Below are positions 1 to 19,799 of a stretch of DNA of 57,632 bases, piece by piece. Location of the stretch: positions 1-57,632 of IMG/VR virus record IMGVR_UViG_3300012943_000037; one strand, written 5' to 3'. Source of the DNA: a virus. Lineage: Duplodnaviria > Caudoviricetes. The notes beneath the pieces are model-generated. The model made no database searches. It saw only the letters and a list, made by a program, of their open reading frames with translations, and was not told the origin of the DNA. Each line of letters begins with the position of its first letter. Position 1 is the first letter of the stretch. The position numbers and the translations under genes are program-made.

Positions 1-1
1 C

Positions 2-1660
2 CCTAAGACAGATAATGCATTCCTGAAAGCTTCTATTAAGAAGGCAGCAGAAACTACTGCATTAGGAAATGGTGCACTGAAATATACTACTACTGGAAAC
101 GATTTCGTAGACCAGTTTGGTAAGGCAACAATTTATAAGGCTCCTCGTACCTTTGCTGAAATAAGTAAAGATATGAGCTTGTTATTCTCACAAGATGGCC
201 TGACAGCAACTAAGTTTGCTACTTATTTGAGAATGATTACACGTGTGATCTCTTTCAGTGATGGAAGCAGAACAGAACATACACAACGTGGACAGGGCTT
301 GAAACATGAAGGTATATTCCGTATGATTTGGCTGGCACTAAACCAGCCTAACACATTCTGGAAGAATATCCACCTGTTTGTGGCTGCTGGTTCATGGAAG
401 GATGTTATCACCATGTTACAGTATGATTTAGTGTATAATGGATGGGATGGAAGAAAATTGGATTGGGATAATTTTGGTCAGTTAATTCTGGCTGGATTAG
501 AGAACCCACGTTCTTCTGAATTGTTGAAGAAATATCTGCCACAAATCAAGGCTAACTCAGCATGTACAACTGTTGAGAGTCAGGCTGACAACATGATTGC
601 TAAGTGGATATGTTCCCTTATCTTTGGATCAAAAGGTAATACTAATGATTCATCTAAGTATAAGGCATACAGAAAACTGAAGAGTGCAGGTACTGCCCAT
701 AAATGGCAACAGTTGATTAGCCAGAACAAGATGTTATCCATTGATTTCAACTCGATTCATGGTAGAGCATTGGCTAATTTAGTGAGTGGTAAATTCCTGA
801 AAAATGCAGGATTGGAGGCTTCATACCAGAAATGGATTGAAAGTAAACCAGTTGCAAAGTATACAGGTTACCCATATGAACTGATTGGGCCACTTAAGAC
901 AAGAACAGGAATGTCAATTAACCTGACTAAGTATCAGGAAGATACATTGAACAAACAGTTCATGACACTGGTAGAAGTTGCCAGAAATGGTATGGATGAA
1001 GGTGATACTGGACTGTTACCAGTTATTGATACATCTGCATCAATGACATCCTCAGTTCCTGGGACTAAGTGTAGTGCATTTTCTGTAGCTACATCTATGG
1101 CACTGTACTTCTCATACCTGTTAAAGGGTACATTTGAAGATCATTATGCTGAGTTCTCTAACTCATGTATTATGAGACAGTGGAAAGGTAAAGAACCAGT
1201 AGACAGAATCAGAAATCAGGATTCTTCTATCACAGCATCAACAAACTTCCAAGCAATTGGTGATTTATTTGTTGAGATGTTAAGAAAAGGAGTTCCTGAG
1301 AGTGAATTCCCAACTGGTATAATCTGTATCTCAGATGGTTGTTTCAATTCTACAGGTAGCAACAAGACAAACTACCAGACCTTGAAAACGAAACTAAGAT
1401 CAGGTGGTTTTTCACAGGAATATGTGGATAACTTCAAATGTATATTGTGGGATGTACCTAACTCCTACTATGCAAAGAAAGGAAATCAGGCATTTGAATC
1501 ATTTGCAGACCAGCCAAACCTATTCCATATAGGTGGTTTAGACCCTGCATCAATAGCCTTCATTACTGGTATCAAAGGTAGTGAAAGAATACCTCAAACA
1601 TCTGAAGAGTTGTTTGAAGCAGCTATGGAACAGGAAGTTTTGGAAATGATCCAACTTTAA
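2..1660 (+). CDS. DUF2828-family protein with C-terminal vWA domain (Ro60/TROVE-like RNA-binding protein); 5' end lies outside the window
   Basis: The frame is open from position 2 (PKTDNAF...TALGNGALKYTTTGNDFVDQF...) into ORF 173..1660. The NGA-x-Y-TTG-xx-VD-F start, GSWKD, AKW, vWA MIDAS DTSAS, STNF, ISDG-x-F and ILWDV motifs match DUF2828-type proteins. Confidence 0.8.
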   Translation, partial: PKTDNAFLKASIKKAAETTALGNGALKYTTTGNDFVDQFGKATIYKAPRTFAEISKDMSLLFSQDGLTATKFATYLRMITRVISFSDGSRTEHTQRGQGLKHEGIFRMIWLALNQPNTFWKNIHLFVAAGSWKDVITMLQYDLVYNGWDGRKLDWDNFGQLILAGLENPRSSELLKKYLPQIKANSACTTVESQADNMIAKWICSLIFGSKGNTNDSSKYKAYRKLKSAGTAHKWQQLISQNKMLSIDFNSIHGRALANLVSGKFLKNAGLEASYQKWIESKPVAKYTGYPYELIGPLKTRTGMSINLTKYQEDTLNKQFMTLVEVARNGMDEGDTGLLPVIDTSASMTSSVPGTKCSAFSVATSMALYFSYLLKGTFEDHYAEFSNSCIMRQWKGKEPVDRIRNQDSSITASTNFQAIGDLFVEMLRKGVPESEFPTGIICISDGCFNSTGSNKTNYQTLKTKLRSGGFSQEYVDNFKCILWDVPNSYYAKKGNQAFESFADQPNLFHIGGLDPASIAFITGIKGSERIPQTSEELFEAAMEQEVLEMIQL

Positions 1661-1673
1661 TAACAAAAATAAA

Positions 1674-1703
1674 GGATTGGCATAGTTTATGCTATGTCAA
1701 TCC
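1674..1703 (+). other. 12-bp hairpin between the DUF2828 gene and the RNA array (possible processing or stabilising element)
   Basis: GGATTGGCATAG-TTTATG-CTATGTCAATCC; no U-tract follows. Confidence 0.5.
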
Positions 1704-1708
1704 CACAC

Positions 1709-1778
1709 ACGGGAGTAGCTCAAGTGTATAGAGCACCAGAAATGGGGGTTGGTGGTTTGAATCCATCCTCCCGTGCCA
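1709..1778 (+). ncRNA. tRNA-like RNA whose anticodon arm is replaced by a 3-bp GAAA-tetraloop hairpin; encoded CCA end
   Basis: Acceptor ACGGGAG/CTCCCGT, D stem GCTC/GAGC, CCA-GAAA-TGG, T arm GGTGG-TTTGAAT-CCATC, then G-CCA. Confidence 0.8.
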
Positions 1779-1780
1779 CA

Positions 1781-1849
1781 AGATGATGTGCAGCAAACTT
1801 TTATCTATAATTCAGAATTTTACTTTGAAAACAGAAAACAACATCATCT
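1781..1849 (+). ncRNA. Array unit 1 (possible Gln-TTG anticodon-loop-like cargo)
   Basis: AGATGATGT...ACATCATCT stem, GCAGCAAAC; inner CTTTGAA at 1823-1829 has only a weak stem. Confidence 0.7.
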
Positions 1850-1853
1850 GATA

Positions 1854-1913
1854 GGGTTACTAACAGCAAATTCAACATTCAAATTTGGGTTTTGAAAAAC
1901 AAGATAGTAACCC
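1854..1913 (+). ncRNA. Array unit 2 with Pro(TGG) anticodon stem-loop
   Basis: GGGTTACTA...TAGTAACCC stem, ACAGCAAAT; TTCAAA-TTTGGGT-TTTGAA at 1878-1896. Confidence 0.75.
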
Positions 1914-1917
1914 GATA

Positions 1918-1977
1918 AGGTGACCAACAGCAAATCTAATTTACCTACTGCAAATTGGAAATAAAGGATGGTCACCT
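1918..1977 (+). ncRNA. Array unit 3 with Cys(GCA) anticodon-loop mimic
   Basis: AGGTGACCA...TGGTCACCT stem, ACAGCAAAT; CCTA-CTGCAAA-TTGG at 1944-1958 (imperfect stem). Confidence 0.72.
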
Positions 1978-1981
1978 GATA

Positions 1982-2114
1982 AGATTACCCCACAGTACAG
2001 CAAACTTTTGTATTTAACAATTATTAAACATTGGAGTTTTACAAAAAGTAACAAGGTGTGTGAATGGGAACTTCTCTCGGAAGGGAGTTAATAGGAGTTC
2101 ACACAGGGTAATCT
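1982..2114 (+). ncRNA. Array unit 4 (long unit with internal hairpins, cargo unassigned)
   Basis: AGATTACCC...GGGTAATCT stem, ACAGTACAGCAAAC; internal TTTTGTA/TACAAAA and GTGTGAAT/GTTCACAC pairings. Confidence 0.65.
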
Positions 2115-2185
2115 GATTTATATGTAGGAGGAAGGACATACAAGAGTCGTTAAACGTCTCCCAGAGTCCTTCTGACTACTCCAGA

Positions 2186-2321
2186 AGAATTCGTACAGCA
2201 AATAACTAGCAAATTCTAATCATAATAGAAGGTCACAGGTTCGATTCCTGTTCTCCCAACCAGTCTTACTGTCTGGGAGATAGTGTAGTGGAAACATCTA
2301 AAACGCAAAAAAACGAATTCT
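2186..2321 (+). ncRNA. Array unit 5 enclosing a circularly permuted tRNA with CAT anticodon (Met or Ile2)
   Basis: AGAATTCGT...ACGAATTCT stem. The 3' part at 2214-2262 (anticodon arm, T arm, TCTCCCA-A-CCA) precedes the 5' part at 2274-2298 (TGGGAGA, D arm). Confidence 0.82.
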
Positions 2322-2325
2322 GATA

Positions 2326-2530
2326 AGTGTACAGACAGCAAATTACAACGCAAATCCTTGTCACGGACGGGACAGAAGTTCGAATCTTCTACCCCCTGCA
2401 AAGGAATATCTAAGTATCCATGCAAATTGTATGTAACCTGAGGAGGCCATACTTGGAGAGTTTAGATATTCCCTACTTTATAGGGGGTTGGTGTAGTGGT
2501 TAGCATACGTAAAGCAAAAAAATGTACACT
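2326..2530 (+). ncRNA. Array unit 6 enclosing a circularly permuted tRNA-Asp(GTC)
   Basis: AGTGTACA...TGTACACT stem. The 3' part at 2355-2398 precedes the 5' part at 2482-2510; acceptor AGGGGGT/ACCCCCT, discriminator G. Confidence 0.82.
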
Positions 2531-2534
2531 GATA

Positions 2535-2716
2535 GGAAGAGATACAGCAAACAATTATTTAATTGTTCGAATCAATTCTTCCCCACACTTGCAAGTGGGA
2601 GATGATCTATGAAGGAGGGAGGTTGCTAAAACCTTAATACAATCCCCCGGAGGTTATCCAAACCCTGCAAATAAACAAATGGGGAAGCAATAGGGTGGTG
2701 GACACCCTGCTCTTCC
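2535..2716 (+). ncRNA. Array unit 7 with permuted, degenerate tRNA-like content (T arm first)
   Basis: GGAAGAG...CTCTTCC stem, ACAGCAAAC; T arm AATTG-TTCGAAT-CAATT, later hairpin AGGT-TGCTAAA-ACCT. Confidence 0.65.
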
Positions 2717-2720
2717 GTTA

Positions 2721-2783
2721 AGATGTGTAACAGCAAACATTCCCAATGACTCATAATCATTACCACACGGAAAATGCACATCT
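2721..2783 (+). ncRNA. Array unit 8 with CAT anticodon stem-loop
   Basis: AGATGTGTA...TGCACATCT stem, ACAGCAAAC; perfect AATGA-CTCATAA-TCATT at 2745-2761. Confidence 0.8.
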
Positions 2784-2787
2784 GATA

Positions 2788-2856
2788 GGATGCCAAACAG
2801 CAAACAATCTTTAAAACACAAGTAAGCAAAATTTGACAGTTTAAAAAGAGGCATCC
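2788..2856 (+). ncRNA. Array unit 9 (cargo unassigned)
   Basis: GGATGCC...GGCATCC stem, ACAGCAAAC; inner TCTTT/AAAGA pairing. Confidence 0.7.
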
Positions 2857-2863
2857 GTTTTTA

Positions 2864-2930
2864 AGGGCACACACAGCAAACACTTTAAGCATTCTACTTG
2901 TAATGGAAACACGCTAAAAGCATGTGCCCT
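2864..2930 (+). ncRNA. Array unit 10 with Thr(TGT) anticodon stem-loop
   Basis: AGGGCACA...TGTGCCCT stem, ACAGCAAAC; TTCTA-CTTGTAA-TGGAA at 2892-2908. Confidence 0.78.
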
Positions 2931-2934
2931 GTCA

Positions 2935-3050
2935 AGGTATCTAACAGCAAATAACTAGTCGTGTAGGTAGTTCAGTAGGTAGAACACAGGATGGTAAATC
3001 CTGAGGTCTGGGGTTCGAGCCCTCACCCATACAAAACTAAAATGATACCT
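2935..3050 (+). ncRNA. Array unit 11 enclosing a full, non-permuted tRNA-like cloverleaf (2961-3033) with atypical anticodon loop TGGTAAA
   Basis: AGGTATC...GATACCT stem, ACAGCAAAT; GTGTAGG/CCCATAC acceptor, GTTC/GAAC D stem, CAGGA/TCCTG anticodon stem, TGGGG-TTCGAGC-CCTCA T arm. Confidence 0.78.
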
Positions 3051-3055
3051 GAAGT

Positions 3056-3083
3056 CCTTCCTATATGGTGAAATATAGGAAGG
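3056..3083 (+). other. Hairpin between array units 11 and 12
   Basis: CCTTCCTATA-TGGTGAAA-TATAGGAAGG. Confidence 0.5.
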
Positions 3084-3089
3084 CATTTA

Positions 3090-3185
3090 AGTTGGCATAC
3101 AGCAAATTATTTGGTTTAACACAGAATCTCAAACATTCCACGTGAAGTCCCGGTTCAAATCCGGCAAACCCGAAAGGGGCCAACT
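3090..3185 (+). ncRNA. Array unit 12 with D-armless tRNA-like cargo (Leu CAA loop plus T arm)
   Basis: AGTTGGC...GCCAACT stem, ACAGCAAAT; GAAT-CTCAAAC-ATTC, CCGG-TTCAAAT-CCGG, GGTTT/AAACC. Confidence 0.72.
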
Positions 3186-3208
3186 GTTTTTTATTTAAAA
3201 TCAAGACT

Positions 3209-3472
3209 ATGAACGGAATTACTAATCCTAAAGAGTTAAGAGAAGCTATTGCACTAGCCAAAACTGGTGATAAAGAAGCTTTACATCAAATCCATCTGTA
3301 TAAGTGGTATAATTGGTATCAGAATATACATATAAAGGAGGGAACTCCTGAGGATATTGAGAATACCGAAATCTTTAATGATATTAAGGAAAATGATCCT
3401 GAATTACATAAAGAGATTGAAAAGATGATAGATGGTCAAATTTACAAACTTGTATCCACTGAATATTTGTAA
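3209..3472 (+). CDS. Small hypothetical protein embedded between array units 12 and 13
   Basis: 87-aa ATG ORF with composition typical of the genome. Confidence 0.65.
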   Translation: MNGITNPKELREAIALAKTGDKEALHQIHLYKWYNWYQNIHIKEGTPEDIENTEIFNDIKENDPELHKEIEKMIDGQIYKLVSTEYL

Positions 3473-3610
3473 GATTATCCACAGCATATCTATTTATAAT
3501 AAGAGCAACAAAGTTCAGCCACATTAATACCTTGTGGATGGAGCATGTACCCTTCTAAAAACACCAGTTTACTGGGACAGAAGAACGTGCAAAAGTTGGT
3601 ATGATAATCT
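3472..3610 (+). ncRNA. Array unit 13 (variant motif ACAGCATA)
   Basis: AGATTATC...GATAATCT stem followed by GA; CACAGCATAT just inside the 5' strand. Confidence 0.6.
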
Positions 3611-3636
3611 GAGTTTAGTGAATAAAAGTTTTGTTT

Positions 3637-3670
3637 TAGCCCTGATGTTTCCACATCGGGGTTATTTTTT
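3637..3670 (+). terminator. Intrinsic terminator closing the DUF2828/RNA-array transcript
   Basis: TAGCCCTGATGT-TTCC-ACATCGGGGTTA followed by a T run. Confidence 0.75.
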
Positions 3671-3687
3671 ACCTAAAATCTAATAAT

Positions 3688-3894
3688 ATGAAAACAATAC
3701 CAATATATAGTTCGAAGAACGGCAAGAAAACCATTCACAATGAAGAAGCCTATAAAAGTTTTTGTGAAAAGATTGACAATCTTGAAAAGTACAATATCAC
3801 AAAGGAAGTAATGGAAGATGAAGGTGAAAATAAAGGTAAAATAACAGTCCGTTTGACATTTGAAGAAAAACAACCTGAAAATCTTATTGTATGA
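3688..3894 (+). CDS. hypothetical protein
   Basis: 68-aa ATG ORF after the terminator. Confidence 0.6.
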   Translation: MKTIPIYSSKNGKKTIHNEEAYKSFCEKIDNLEKYNITKEVMEDEGENKGKITVRLTFEEKQPENLIV

Positions 3895-4020
3895 CAAACA
3901 ACGAATTATACACAGTTGCATTAATATCCCTAATACTAAATATTGTTGCACTATTCTGCTTATTCTCACCGAACATCTGTTACCTTTTACATAAAAAGTT
4001 TTTTAAATGGAGGGATAATT

Positions 4021-4677
4021 ATGATAAAACAGTATCCAATAATAAGGATTAAAGACCATTTATATATGGTTGATAAAGAGGCTGATATACCTGAAAAATA
4101 TCCTCAAATAGTTGTTGAGAAACTTACCACCGGAAATTACGACCTGTGGCAGATTGATACTCCTAATGATATTGATAAGAAGAATCAGTATGTTATAATA
4201 GCAACTACTGATGAAAAACTTGGTTTACCTCTATTACCTGCTATTGAGGAGAATATAACAAGAGAAGAAGCTAAAGAAGTTGCCAAAACTGTATTAAATC
4301 CTAGATTTTATGAAAGTATTCAAGGAGGAGAAATGCATTGTTTTCACGAAGGATATAATGCAGGTTACAAAGCAGCTTCTGCAAAGAAGTATACAGAGGA
4401 GGATATGAGGAAAGCCATAAAAGAGGCATTCAGAGGAGGGTTTGACTTAAGTGAATCTGAAGGAAATAGTTGGGATTATGGTAAGGTAAGGGATAATATC
4501 CTTAAATCAATGAATAGTACTCCAATAGCAGTAGAAGTTGAGATGGATTTTGTTCATTTCAGTAATGCAAGTTCCTCTGCTGAATTAATTTCTTTGGAAG
4601 GATTAAATGAATATACAAATATCTTCCCTAAAGCAGTAAACAATTTTGTAACAGTTAAAAAGTGGATATATGAGTAA
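4021..4677 (+). CDS. hypothetical phage protein
   Basis: In-frame ATG at 4021 within ORF 3943..4677; YTEEDMRKA segment. Confidence 0.65.
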   Translation: MIKQYPIIRIKDHLYMVDKEADIPEKYPQIVVEKLTTGNYDLWQIDTPNDIDKKNQYVIIATTDEKLGLPLLPAIEENITREEAKEVAKTVLNPRFYESIQGGEMHCFHEGYNAGYKAASAKKYTEEDMRKAIKEAFRGGFDLSESEGNSWDYGKVRDNILKSMNSTPIAVEVEMDFVHFSNASSSAELISLEGLNEYTNIFPKAVNNFVTVKKWIYE

Positions 4678-5278
4678 AGAAAATTGTCCTTACTGTGGTG
4701 AAAGGTGTTTTGAAGGAGAAGGGTGTGACGAATGGCAAGCTGGTGGCTTTCAAGACAAACCATACTTTGCAAAATACCTTCCTGTAGAAGGAGAGATAAA
4801 AATTGGAGATAGAGTTGAAAGTGAGTCATCTGGTAAGCAAAAAGTACTTGTAACAGGAATCACGAAGAGAGGTGATTATATTACAGATGAACCTGACTTT
4901 TATGAACCTGATTCTTATTTTGTATTACCCAAAAAGAAAGCTAAAAAGTTTTCAAAACAACTATTTCTATGTAGTAGAGATATACAGGTGGGAGATACCG
5001 TTAAGATGAAGTTCTCAGATGGATTAAAAGATTGGGAATGTTCTAATGTTGGCAGATTAGAAGCAGCTAAACATAATGGTTCATTCAAAGTAATAGGTGG
5101 AATATCATCGGAAGCTAAATGGGTTAAGGAAGGAGATGAGTTTGATGAGGATGAGATTGCATTTGCAATTCATGCACCGTGGGAAGAATGGGAACAGGTA
5201 TCTTACGAAGCATGGTTATTAGAGTATACCTTTTATAAGAACATAAAGGTAAAAGGTCATTGTGGTCACTTTCATTAA
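4670..5278 (+). CDS. hypothetical protein with N-terminal Zn-ribbon
   Basis: CPYCGERC...C at the N-terminus; overlaps the upstream stop. Confidence 0.65.
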   Translation: MSKENCPYCGERCFEGEGCDEWQAGGFQDKPYFAKYLPVEGEIKIGDRVESESSGKQKVLVTGITKRGDYITDEPDFYEPDSYFVLPKKKAKKFSKQLFLCSRDIQVGDTVKMKFSDGLKDWECSNVGRLEAAKHNGSFKVIGGISSEAKWVKEGDEFDEDEIAFAIHAPWEEWEQVSYEAWLLEYTFYKNIKVKGHCGHFH

Positions 5279-5893: not shown

Positions 5894-6180
5894 TCTGTAT
5901 AAGAAGAGCCCACTGGAGAGATATGGAGGTAGGACAGGTATTTACAGTAAAGTCAATGGAACAATTCCCTTGTGGATGTTGGGCTGTTAATGTTGGTCAT
6001 GAAGAAAATGGGGAAATGTGTAGTAAACATTTGACATATGTTGATAATCCTATTGGTAGAGGTGCACATCTATTTGCTCCTTATAAATCATCCAGTATAT
6101 GCAATTCAGTAACCAAGGAATTGGCAGAAAAAGCCATGAATGTTGGTGATACTGTTGAACAATACGAGTTAGTCAATTAA
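5860..6180 (+). CDS. hypothetical protein (KOW/SH3-like start FEVGQRVV)
   Basis: ORF track; gene packing. Confidence 0.55.
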   Translation: MEKPFEVGQRVVCIRRAHWRDMEVGQVFTVKSMEQFPCGCWAVNVGHEENGEMCSKHLTYVDNPIGRGAHLFAPYKSSSICNSVTKELAEKAMNVGDTVEQYELVN

Positions 6181-19716: not shown

Positions 19717-19799
19717 TGCAGGGTTAAGGAGAGGTCAACCTTGGAAGGCTCATAACCTTCTGTCTTAGGACACGTCCAGTTCGATTCTGGCCCCTGCTT
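19717..19799 (+). tRNA. tRNA with CAT anticodon (Met-like), long variable arm, unpaired 1:72
   Basis: TGCAGGG/CCCTGCT, AAGG/CCTT D stem, GAAGG-CTCATAA-CCTTC, TGTC-TTAG-GACA, CCAG-TTCGATT-CTGG. Confidence 0.8.

What the first reader, a model, noticed from the sequence alone, without database searches (positions are those of the whole stretch)
1854..2930. Isolated anticodon stem-loops of different identities displayed in the short units
The 60-70 nt units carry hairpins with 7-nt loops of canonical Y-U-NNN-R-N form: Pro TGG (TTCAAA-TTTGGGT-TTTGAA, 1878-1896), Cys GCA (CCTA-CTGCAAA-TTGG, 1944-1958), CAT (AATGA-CTCATAA-TCATT, 2745-2761) and Thr TGT (TTCTA-CTTGTAA-TGGAA, 2892-2908). A weaker Gln TTG loop lies at 1823-1829. 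They have no acceptor, D or T arm, so they cannot act as tRNAs. Inference: they are a panel of decoys for anticodon nucleases, synthetases or modification enzymes.
Basis: partly seen in the sequence, partly recalled or inferred. Interest (0 to 1): 0.85.

Follow-up and report, generated by a model that had tools for sequence, protein, structure and literature searches.

The report
Anticodon-arm mimics on Ro60-linked RNA scaffolds
A phage gene for a Ro60-like RNA-binding protein is followed by a row of small scaffolded RNAs, and several of the shortest carry only the anticodon arm of a tRNA, which suggests baits for proteins that read or cut tRNA anticodons.

Summary
The observation largely holds. 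Window 1781-3185 holds 12 units of one grammar: a 7-9 bp closing stem, CAGCAA placed 10 nt from the stem base, a payload, and a GAUA-type linker. They lie directly after a Ro60-fold gene (2-1660). The same gene-plus-array arrangement recurs in more than 30 phage contigs.

Of the five hairpins claimed:
- 2745-2761 (CUCAUAA) and 2892-2908 (CUUGUAA) are solid. Each has a 5-bp stem and a loop identical to real phage tRNA-Met or tRNA-Thr anticodon loops. Each is also nested in a helix with D-stem sequence.
- 1878-1896 (UUUGGGU) is real but belongs to a separate conserved "GGU-loop" class, 6/7 identical to tRNA-Pro loops.
- 1944-1958 (CUGCAAA) is imperfectly paired.
- 1823-1829 is not a loop.

Across homologous short units, anticodon-like loops occur in 26 of 79, against 4.7 expected from shuffles. 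In the strict census, 20 of 25 such loops have U36 (Lys, Thr, Arg, Met or Asn types).

Best reading: Y-RNA-like modules bound by the Ro60-like protein that display tRNA lower-limb mimics. A decoy or bait role against anticodon-directed host enzymes is plausible but untested. It is a new variant of a known kind (Ro60/Y RNA tRNA mimicry). Other notes of this scan had already described the array on this same window.

The parts
2..1660 (+). Ro60-like (TROVE-fold ring + vWA) protein gene, 5' end cut by the contig start (about 20-25 codons missing)
   Evidence: phrog_850 'RNA-binding protein' at 6.7e-32. AF2 model pLDDT 79, pTM 0.79. The 13 best Foldseek PDB hits are all Ro60/TROVE. VIA-align Z 14.5-16.9 over 399-422 residues for the ten Ro60/TROVE entries, against <=11.2 for vWA-only matches. 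Pfam: DUF2828 in 12 of 14 and DUF7788 in 13 of 14 family members; no TROVE family listed.
1709..1775 (+). tRNA-like element with acceptor, D and T arms but a truncated anticodon arm (CCA-GAAA-TGG), ahead of the array
   Evidence: Rfam tRNA 42 bits, with 11 model positions of the anticodon arm replaced by 4 nt. Not called by ARAGORN.
1781..1849 (+). Short unit U0. Central hairpin 1811-1829 with loop AUUUUAC (1817-1823): Lys-UUU-like but with A32
   Evidence: in MFE and centroid.
1854..1913 (+). Short unit U1. Hairpin 1878-1896 with loop UUUGGGU ('GGU-type' class; 6/7 identical to phage tRNA-Pro loops UUUGGGA)
   Evidence: The MFE prefers another fold.
1918..1977 (+). Short unit U2. CUGCAAA at 1948-1954 flanked by an imperfect stem (U.U mismatch). 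The loop letters equal those of 4 of 4 phage tRNA-Cys examined
1982..2114 (+). Long unit U3 (payload 101 nt, 7-nt spacer before CAGCAAA); content not identified
2186..2321 (+). Long unit U4: YrlA-order (circularly permuted) tRNA-like payload with anticodon arm TTCTA-ATCATAA-TAGAA
   Evidence: Read from sequence; unit limits; weak Rfam tRNA and YrlA hits.
2326..2530 (+). Long unit U5: permuted tRNA-Asp(GUC)-like payload
2535..2716 (+). Long unit U6: T arm, acceptor-like stem and D arm
2721..2783 (+). Short unit U7. Anticodon arm 2745-2761 (loop CUCAUAA), nested in outer helix TTCC/GGAA (2740-2772)
   Evidence: The loop is identical to the window's own tRNA-Met at 19718-19798. CM R1 scores 51.9 bits.
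2788..2856 (+). Short unit U8. Hairpin 2819-2835 with loop AAGCAAA (no U33)
2864..2930 (+). Short unit U9. D-stem-like helix AGC/GCU, then A, then anticodon arm 2892-2908 (loop CUUGUAA), spanning 2888-2915
   Evidence: The loop is identical to tRNA-Thr(UGU) of L039 and L042. CM R1 scores 65.6 bits.
2935..3050 (+). Unit U10 enclosing a non-permuted tRNA-Tyr-like cloverleaf (2961-3033) with loop UGGUAAA (G at position 33)
   Evidence: ARAGORN; Rfam 53.4 bits; loop.
3090..3185 (+). Unit U11: anticodon-arm-like hairpin GAAT-CTCAAAC-ATTC plus a T arm, followed by a T-run
3472..3610 (+). Possible 13th unit with variant motif CAGCATA, after a small ORF (3209-3472)
   Evidence: Not followed up.

Best explanation
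The short units are modules of a Ro60-associated, Y-RNA-like array.

The scaffold is a 7-9 bp closing stem starting with RG, with CAGCAA fixed 10 nt from the stem base, an A-rich 3' side and a GAUA-type linker. It is the handle that the adjacent Ro60-like protein binds (inferred). The payload is the part on display.

In one class of short units (U7 and U9 here) the payload is the lower limb of a tRNA. It consists of a 3-4 bp helix with D-stem sequence, one A at the place of position 26, a 5-bp anticodon stem, and a 7-nt loop C/U-U-NNU-A-A. That loop is letter-for-letter an anticodon loop of tRNAs reading ANN codons (Lys, Thr, Met, Arg-UCU, Asn, Ile).

A second class (U1 here) shows a 7-nt loop ending in GGU that resembles Pro, Gln or His anticodon loops.

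The units cannot be charged or decode. They most likely act as protein-binding baits that bring anticodon-arm-recognising proteins to the Ro60 particle or hold them there. Such proteins include host anticodon nucleases of the PrrC or PARIS kind, and modification enzymes.

Shown here: the anatomy, its conservation, its linkage to the Ro60-like gene, and loop identity with real tRNAs.
Inferred: Ro60 binding, processing into single units, and the bait/decoy role.
For: Linkage to the Ro60-like gene:
- The protein has the Ro60 fold.
- Arrays of the same unit lie within about 0.1-5 kb of its homologues on the same strand, in IMG/VR contigs and MAG contigs.
- A covariance model of the unit gave 146 hits at E<=1 in 603 kb, 145 of them on the Ro60 strand. 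All 8 window hits lie in 1781-3189. In a complete 178-kb relative, the 169 kb outside L021 gave only two hits at 12.46-12.58 kb and one at E 0.81.
- A strict unit finder found 0 units on the window's minus strand.

Scaffold:
- Stem plus spacer equals 10 nt in 153 of 182 non-redundant units.
- ACAGCAAA occurs 15 times in the window (11 in the array) against 2.3 expected.
- In several relatives the Ro60 start codon sits in a scaffold-like hairpin, as expected for a protein that binds this motif.

Anticodon-arm likeness:
- 26 of 79 homologous short units have a Y-U-NNN-R-N loop on >=4 bp, against 4.7 +/- 2.0 in shuffles.
- 7-nt loops on >=5 bp occur in 38 of 89 short units, against 10-23 for loop sizes 3-6 and 8-11.
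- CT..TA[ACT] is flanked by >=4 pairs in 14 of 21 occurrences in short units, against 70 of 1654 in background.
- 22 of 94 short-unit hairpin loops are 7/7 identical to anticodon loops of 102 free-standing tRNAs of the same phages, against 135 of 15,455 background hairpins.
- Covariation: 5 of 5 inner-stem pairs and 8 of 8 closing-stem pairs change on both sides, with 88% of cells paired against 58% shuffled.
- The outer helix reads AGC/GCU or AAC/GUU followed by A, like ...GAGCA or ...GAACA before the anticodon stem of the phages' real tRNAs.
- Longer units carry the same arm at the same place, followed by T arm, acceptor and D arm. This is the YrlA order (PMC4201824, passages read).

Precedent (literature):
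- Phage Ro60 binds adjacent Y-RNA-like RNAs that have a terminal stem and an internal-loop motif (PMC12135203, abstract and passages).
- Lys-UUU, Thr-UGU and Asn-GUU tRNAs sharing U36-A-A-U39 are the targets of PARIS AriB (PMC12409363, abstract and sections 22-23).
- 22 of the 30 best class-B hits have U39.
Against: - No RNA data: no listed sequencing run is RNA, so transcription, processing and folding are unshown.
- The scaffold motif CAGCAA is not the GNCGAAN0-1G / CGAA motif of described bacterial and phage Y RNAs.
- Rfam YrlA scores only 18.3 bits against a gathering score of 69.
- The protein has no Pfam TROVE hit.
- Only 25 of 98 short units have a strict anticodon-like hairpin. 33 of 98 have no 7-nt-loop hairpin with >=4 bp at all. 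The display of anticodon arms is therefore one payload type among several.
- Stems of the mimics are A/U-rich and weak. Whole-unit z-scores are only -1.5 to -1.8 for U0, U7 and U9.
- Units were selected by pairing criteria, and the phages are related, so counts and covariation are inflated to an unknown degree. The 30-of-30 U36 figure among top CM hits leans on a model built from such loops.
- AriB also needs contacts outside the anticodon arm (section 22 of PMC12409363), so an arm alone may be a poor decoy for that enzyme.
- The host is unknown, so host tRNA arms could not be compared.
Confidence: 0.6

Rival explanations
1. tRNA-operon processing cassettes. The scaffold is only a processing or stability signal for a phage tRNA island, for example helices cut by host RNases. 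The short units would be decayed leftovers of tRNA-like payloads that kept their anticodon arm by descent, with no function of their own.
For: Units are interleaved with ordinary tRNA genes in several relatives, e.g. L035, L036, L039 and L042. One window unit encloses a whole tRNA-like cloverleaf. A third of short units have no clear 7-nt-loop hairpin.
Against: The class-B module is kept across phages whose Ro60-like proteins are only 44-62% identical. Stems change by compensatory pairs while the loop stays fixed. Loops remain exact copies of working anticodon loops. Strict linkage to one protein gene and the start-codon mimic point to a protein partner rather than a generic RNase signal.
Confidence: 0.15
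2. Parts for cut-and-ligate tRNA biogenesis or repair. Payloads are excised and circularised or joined. Permuted tRNAs become functional tRNAs, and anticodon-arm units serve as spare arms for anticodon-less or damaged tRNA bodies such as 1709-1775.
For: Permuted tRNA-like payloads and an anticodon-less tRNA-like element lie in the same array. Host nucleases that remove or cut anticodon arms exist (PMC12445682 title and abstract in a search listing only; PMC12409363).
Against: No consistent ligase in 5 records, 3 of them complete: RtcB 0 of 5, Rnl2-type 2 of 5, Rnl1-type 1 of 5, CCA-adding enzyme 2 of 5. One complete 178-kb genome has none of them. A host ligase is not excluded. No splicing-type motif or ribozyme was found by Rfam at E<=10. 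The class-B unit closes its own D-stem-like helix, which suits a self-contained fold rather than a fragment to be inserted.
Confidence: 0.1
3. Loop-loop or antisense regulators. The 7-nt loops pair with other RNAs, such as complementary anticodons or mRNA sites, rather than mimic tRNA for proteins.
For: Anticodon loops are good kissing partners (general knowledge, recalled). Loops are the most conserved payload part.
Against: The triplets are those of common tRNAs, not their complements. The conserved positions are 32, 33 and 36-38, which frame an anticodon, rather than the middle triplet. No target was sought or found.
Confidence: 0.05
4. Chance hairpins in A/T-rich spacer DNA.
For: A/T-rich sequence gives many weak hairpins. 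Shuffles still give 33.5 of 79 units with some 7-nt-loop hairpin of >=4 bp.
Against: Every enrichment test exceeded all shuffles, the background controls and the slid-partner controls.
Confidence: 0.02

Closest known systems
Bacterial and phage Y RNAs of the YrlA/YrlB type with Ro60 (Rsr) (Chen et al. 2014, PMC4201824)
   Same: Small RNAs encoded next to, and on the strand of, a Ro60-fold gene. A terminal stem with a conserved single-stranded 5'-side motif. Long members carry a tRNA-like domain in the order variable region, T arm, acceptor stem-loop, D arm. Short members lack it, like YrlB.
   Different: Up to 12-13 units head to tail, against one to a few described. The motif is CAGCAA at a fixed 10 nt instead of GNCGAAN0-1G. 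Rfam YrlA is not reached (18.3 of 69 bits). Many units keep a full anticodon arm, and some consist of that arm only. YrlA as described has no anticodon arm.
Thermus phage phiLo Ro60 with Yrl1/Yrl2 (PMC12135203)
   Same: A phage-encoded Ro60 with adjacent Y-RNA-like genes. Stem, internal loop and motif architecture. It is the best structural match of the window's protein (9kop: Foldseek E 1.7e-8; VIA Z 16.9).
   Different: Two RNAs lying upstream, a CGAA motif, no anticodon-arm payloads reported in the passages read, and only about 14% sequence identity of the proteins in the structural alignment.
Deinococcus radiodurans Yrn1
   Same: Can be drawn with an 'anticodon arm' of 5 bp (passage of PMC4201824).
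   Different: Its loop has 6 nt, not 7, it sits in a single Y RNA, and no identity with real anticodon loops is reported.
Phage tRNAs that defeat tRNA-cleaving defences (T5 tRNA-Lys, -Thr and -Asn against PARIS; PMC12409363, PMC11464382)
   Same: Phage-encoded RNAs with Lys-UUU, Thr-UGU and Asn-GUU anticodon loops, the same loop set that dominates the class-B modules.
   Different: Those are complete, chargeable tRNAs that replace the cut host tRNAs. The modules here are arms without acceptor or T arm, and would have to work by binding, not by decoding.
Circularly permuted tRNA genes of the red alga Cyanidioschyzon merolae (recalled, not read here)
   Same: The 3' part of the tRNA is encoded before the 5' part, as in units U4 and U5.
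   Different: Eukaryotic, processed through a bulge-helix-bulge motif and a circular intermediate. No such motif or machinery was seen here. Concerns the long units, not the short ones.

Membership tests
tRNA (functional adaptor) | Acceptor stem with 3' end, D arm and T arm | tested here: not met
   Short-unit payloads are 34-45 nt. ARAGORN and Rfam tRNA call nothing inside the six short units.
tRNA (functional adaptor) | Anticodon arm: 5-bp stem, 7-nt loop, U33, purine 37 | tested here: met
   Met for 2745-2761 and 2892-2908, whose loops are 7/7 identical to real tRNA-Met and tRNA-Thr loops. 1878-1896 has a 6-bp stem, U33 and G37. 1944-1958 is imperfectly paired.
Y RNA (YrlA/YrlB type) | Encoded within a few kb of a Ro60 orthologue, on the same strand | tested here: met
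   145 of 146 CM hits are on the Ro60 strand and near the gene.
Y RNA (YrlA/YrlB type) | Terminal 5'/3' stem plus internal loop carrying the motif GNCGAAN0-1G (CGAA) | tested here: not met
   The stem and internal loop are present, but the motif is CAGCAA[A/U/C] in 173 of 182 units and CAGCAT in 9. The defining motif is taken from PMC4201824 and PMC12135203.
Y RNA (YrlA/YrlB type) | Rfam YrlA (RF02553) gathering score | tested here: not met
   Best hit 18.3 bits at 2231-2297 against a gathering score of 69.
Y RNA (YrlA/YrlB type) | Bound by the Ro60 protein | not testable with these tools
   Indirect only: linkage, the 10-nt ruler and the start-codon mimic.
Ro60 / TROVE protein | HEAT-repeat ring plus vWA domain fold | tested here: met
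   The 13 best Foldseek hits are all Ro60/TROVE (E 1.7e-8 to 2.3e-4). VIA Z 14.5-16.9, rmsd 4.1-6.1 over 399-422 residues.
Ro60 / TROVE protein | Pfam TROVE domain by sequence | tested here: not met
   No TROVE family is listed at E<=1 for any of 14 members. DUF2828 matches 12 of 14, DUF7788 13 of 14, and vWA_Ro60 1 of 14 at E 0.22. phmmer against PDB sequences gave nothing at E<=1.
Ro60 / TROVE protein | MIDAS-type DxSxS in the vWA domain | tested here: met
   D343, S345 and S347 are invariant in 14 sequences.
Anti-defence decoy for anticodon nucleases | Carries the sequence that the nuclease recognises (for PARIS AriB: U36-A-A-U39 in Lys, Thr or Asn arms) | tested here: inconclusive
   22 of the 30 best class-B hits have U39 after ..UAA. 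However, AriB also needs distal contacts (PMC12409363, section 22), and neither the host nor its defences are known.
Anti-defence decoy for anticodon nucleases | Inhibits or absorbs the nuclease | not testable with these tools
   Needs cleavage and competition assays.

The most novel reading that the evidence does not exclude
A phage RNP in which a Ro60-like ring protein holds a programmable panel of tRNA lower-limb mimics (D-stem plus anticodon arm of Lys, Thr, Arg, Met and Asn types, and a second Pro/Gln/His-like class). The panel would capture or neutralise host anticodon-directed defence nucleases. That would be an RNA-based anti-defence system whose specificity is written in 7-nt loops.
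Probability: 0.25. Interest if true: 0.9.

Novelty: new variant of a known kind. Interest (0 to 1): 0.7.

Why it matters
What the tRNA-like domains of bacterial Y RNAs are for is still open. Here the same kind of RNP appears in large phages as a modular array. The tRNA is taken apart into a whole mimic, an upper part without anticodon, and a lower limb with anticodon.

The lower-limb modules are biased to the very anticodon loops (Lys-UUU, Thr-UGU, Asn-GUU types) that known defence nucleases cut. This gives a direct, testable link between Ro60/Y RNA biology and the phage-host conflict over tRNAs. It also provides small defined RNAs of about 60 nt with which to test it.

If the modules only tether modification or processing enzymes, they still define a compact natural mimic of the D-stem plus anticodon-arm domain.

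Tried and rejected
Chance: rejected.

Known ribozyme or other Rfam family in 1500-3800: at E<=10 only tRNA, weak YrlA and unrelated weak hits; no self-cleaving ribozyme.

Tandem DNA repeat, CRISPR-like or integron-like array: Tandem Repeats Finder reports nothing inside 1781-3185. The units share grammar, not sequence.

My own idea that CUGCAAA is a second copy of the scaffold's GCAAA motif rather than a Cys loop: not settled. It is weakened because 4 of 4 phage tRNA-Cys examined have exactly CUGCAAA.

My idea that GGU-type loops mimic a D-loop or pair with the tRNA NCCA end: not tested. The nearer match is to Pro, Gln and His anticodon loops.

Single-linkage clustering of payloads at 70% identity gave 25 clusters, 5 with an ASL-like hairpin. 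It lumps A-rich sequences and was not used for inference.

Expression: no RNA holder listed.

Host tRNA comparison: the host is unknown. The MAG contigs carrying the gene bear inconsistent taxon labels, so phage tRNAs were used instead.

Print search. Four searches (YrlA/Rsr/tRNA-like/phage; Ro60/Y RNA/phage/tRNA; DUF2828; anticodon stem-loop/decoy/phage/anticodon nuclease) listed no paper describing anticodon-arm-only Y-RNA modules or such arrays. A fifth (permuted tRNA/bacteriophage) listed none on permuted tRNAs in phages. Supplements were closed, so the phage lists in the supplementary tables of PMC4201824 could not be checked for relatives of this phage.
Full report
**What is there.**
Reading 1-5000 shows an ORF running from the contig start to 1660. 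Between 1781 and 3185 lies a row of units with one grammar:
- A 5' strand beginning RG.
- After 10 nt, the word CAGCAA(A).
- A payload of 34-180 nt.
- The complement of the first 7-9 nt.
- A 4-nt linker, mostly GAUA.

A script found 12 such units in the window, plus a possible 13th at 3472-3610.

ACAGCAAA occurs 15 times in the window, 11 of them in the array on the + strand, against 2.3 expected. Tandem Repeats Finder sees nothing in the array, because the units share grammar and not sequence.

Six units are short (59-69 nt): 1781-1849, 1854-1913, 1918-1977, 2721-2783, 2788-2856 and 2864-2930.

**The neighbouring protein.**
- The ORF hits PHROG 850 'RNA-binding protein' at 6.7e-32.
- By Pfam it matches only DUF2828 and DUF7788 (12 and 13 of 14 family members). 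There is no TROVE hit.
- An AlphaFold model built on 14 homologues has pLDDT 79 and pTM 0.79.
- Its 13 best Foldseek matches are all Ro60/TROVE structures, including the Ro60 of Thermus phage phiLo.
- VIA-align gives Z 14.5-16.9 over 399-422 residues for the ten Ro60/TROVE entries. Matches that cover only the vWA domain reach at most 11.2.
- A DxSxS motif is invariant.

It is therefore a Ro60-fold protein of a sequence family not filed under TROVE.

**Relatives.**
- The protein has homologues (44-62% identity) on 32 IMG/VR loci and 9 MAG contigs.
- Nearly all of these have arrays of the same unit within a few kb on the same strand, most downstream and some upstream.
- After removing identical copies there are 182 units. 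Stem plus spacer is exactly 10 nt in 153 of them.
- A covariance model of one unit class, searched over 603 kb on both strands, gave 146 hits at E<=1, 145 on the Ro60 strand.
- All eight window hits lie in the array.
- In a complete 178-kb relative, everything outside the Ro60 neighbourhood gave one hit at E 0.81.
- In several relatives the units are interleaved with ordinary tRNA genes.

**The claimed hairpins.**
- Three exist as written with perfect stems: 1878-1896, 2745-2761 and 2892-2908.
- 2745-2761 and 2892-2908 are in the minimum-energy fold of their units. 1878-1896 competes with another fold.
- 1944-1958 has a U.U mismatch and is not in the predicted fold.
- The 'Gln' loop at 1823-1829 is really the 3' strand of a 6-bp hairpin whose loop is AUUUUAC, at 1817-1823.

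**Is the anticodon likeness more than chance?**
- In 79 non-redundant short units from the relatives, 26 have a Y-U-NNN-R-N loop of 7 nt on at least 4 pairs, against 4.7 +/- 2.0 in dinucleotide shuffles. With 5 pairs the figures are 19 against 1.7. For the narrower form CUNNUA[A/C/U] they are 14 against 0.2. No shuffle out of 300 reached the observed values.
- Seven is the preferred loop size: 38 of 89 units with >=5 pairs, against 10-23 for other sizes.
- Chosen without regard to pairing, CT..TA[ACT] is flanked by >=4 pairs in 14 of 21 cases in short units, against 70 of 1654 elsewhere in the same loci.
- ARAGORN tRNAs in the same phage sequences, and only one of them lies inside a scaffold unit. 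Against these, 22 of 94 short-unit hairpin loops are identical in all seven letters to a real anticodon loop, compared with 135 of 15,455 background hairpins.
- The window's CUCAUAA equals the loop of its own tRNA-Met (19718-19798). CUUGUAA equals the tRNA-Thr loops of two relatives. CUGCAAA equals 4 of 4 tRNA-Cys loops. UUUGGGU differs at one position from 5 of 5 tRNA-Pro loops.

**Two classes.**

*Class B (U7 and U9 here).* It has a fixed build: AAC or AGC, one A, a 5-bp stem, C/U-U-NNU-A-A, the stem's complement, three or four bases (often ACAC), then GUU or GCU.
- The outer helix has the letters of a tRNA D-stem, and the single A sits where position 26 does. Compare ...GAGCA or ...GAACA before the anticodon stem of the phages' real tRNAs. 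The module therefore copies the lower limb of the tRNA L.
- In an alignment of 16 such units, all 5 inner-stem pairs and all 8 closing-stem pairs show changes on both sides. 88% of cells pair, against 58% after shuffling and 32-43% with slid partners. The outer helix was misaligned by MAFFT in part (62% paired).
- In the unbiased census, 20 of 25 strict ASL-like loops have U36: UUU 10, CUU 2, UGU 2, CGU 2, UCU 2, CAU 1, GUU 1. Free-standing tRNAs have U36 in 35 of 102.
- The 30-of-30 U36 figure among top model hits leans on the model's own consensus.

*Class A (U1 here).* 19 of 98 short units have loops ending in GGU or the like (UUUUGGU, UUAUGGU, UUGUGGU and others). Some equal real Gln or His loops. 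By my reading of the loop list, only about half keep U33, and position 38 is U where the real tRNAs mostly have A.

*The rest.* 21 of 98 short units have another 7-nt-loop hairpin, and 33 of 98 have none by the strict test.

**Link to longer units.**
Longer units carry the same arm at the same place after the motif, followed by part or all of T arm, acceptor stem-loop and D arm. This is the order described for YrlA (passages of PMC4201824). The short class-B units therefore look like the long ones without the upper half.

**How it most likely works.**
*Shown:* anatomy, conservation, linkage, and loop identity.

*Inferred:* the Ro60-like protein binds the scaffold. Three observations support this.
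- The constant 10-nt distance fits a protein that measures from the stem base.
- In L002, L003, L004, L012, L014, L051 and L054 the protein's own start codon lies in a scaffold-like hairpin with (C)AGCAAA. This hairpin is absent in L006, L007, L008, L013 and L017.
- Phage phiLo Ro60 binds its adjacent Y-like RNAs (PMC12135203).

*Further inferred:* the payload acts as a bait for proteins that recognise anticodon arms.
- The bias to Lys-UUU, Thr-UGU and Asn-GUU types with U36-A-A-U39 matches the target set of PARIS AriB (PMC12409363). Lys-UUU is also the PrrC substrate (title and abstract of PMC1484252 in a search listing).
- This makes the decoy reading attractive, but it is not shown. AriB also needs contacts outside the arm.
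- RNA-repair genes are not consistently present: RtcB 0 of 5 records, Rnl2-type 2 of 5, Rnl1-type 1 of 5, CCA-adding enzyme 2 of 5. This weakens a cut-and-ligate model that relies on phage enzymes.

**Comparison and novelty.**
- Ro60 with adjacent tRNA-mimicking Y RNAs is known in bacteria and phages (PMC4201824, PMC12135203). TROVE proteins were noted in some jumbo phages in an RNA-repair context (PMC7824862, passage).
- New here: long head-to-tail arrays, a different scaffold motif at a fixed distance, and modules that display only a D-stem plus anticodon arm with authentic anticodon loops.
- The literature searches listed nothing describing this. Supplements were closed.
- Other notes of this scan on the same window had already described the array, the permuted tRNAs and the anticodon-less mimic. 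I re-derived these features from my own reading of the sequence before seeing those notes.

**Limits.**
- There are no RNA data, no binding data, and the host is unknown.
- Units were chosen by pairing rules, and the phages are related, so the counts are not independent events.

Noticed in passing
L002:26-75, L003:5942-6003, L004:5741-5793, L012:5936-5991, L014 (start at 5935), L051:3943-3998, L054:4445-4497: The start codon of the Ro60-like gene lies inside a scaffold-like hairpin (AGATGTT(T) .. (C)AGCAAA .. AACATCT then G). This suggests the protein binds and regulates its own mRNA. The hairpin is absent in L006, L007, L008, L013 and L017. The window's own start is cut off by the contig end.
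   Followed up: partly
window 1781-3185 and all related arrays: The distance from the first base of the closing stem to CAGCAA is 10 nt in 153 of 182 units. Shorter stems have longer spacers (9+1, 8+2, 7+3).
   Followed up: yes
window 1709-1775: A tRNA-like element (Rfam tRNA 42 bits) with acceptor, D and T arms and a G-CCA end, but only a 3-bp stem plus GAAA in place of the anticodon arm. It sits just before the array.
   Followed up: partly
window 2961-3033: The scaffolded tRNA-Tyr-like cloverleaf has the anticodon loop UGGUAAA, with G at position 33 instead of U.
   Followed up: partly
window 3472-3610: A possible further unit with CAGCATA and a 114-nt payload, separated from the array by a small ORF (3209-3472) with no family hit.
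   Followed up: no
L049:6796-6870: ARAGORN calls a tRNA with a four-base anticodon (taat) inside the array region of a relative.
   Followed up: no
L009:8862-9219: A tmRNA gene lies directly after the array in a relative, followed by tRNA genes.
   Followed up: no
L041:6725-6795, L043:6528-6593, L017:7981-8045: The covariance model finds units whose scaffold word is CUGCAA or CCGCAA instead of CAGCAA, so the motif tolerates changes at its second base.
   Followed up: partly
window 1982-2185: Unit U3 (101-nt payload, odd 7-nt spacer) and the 70-nt stretch after it (2115-2185) contain further G+C-richer hairpins that match no family searched.
   Followed up: no
window 3601-3698: Weak minus-strand Rfam matches to the Bacteroidetes sRNAs GibS and FopS (23-24 bits, far below gathering). 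At most a faint hint of a Bacteroidota host.
   Followed up: no
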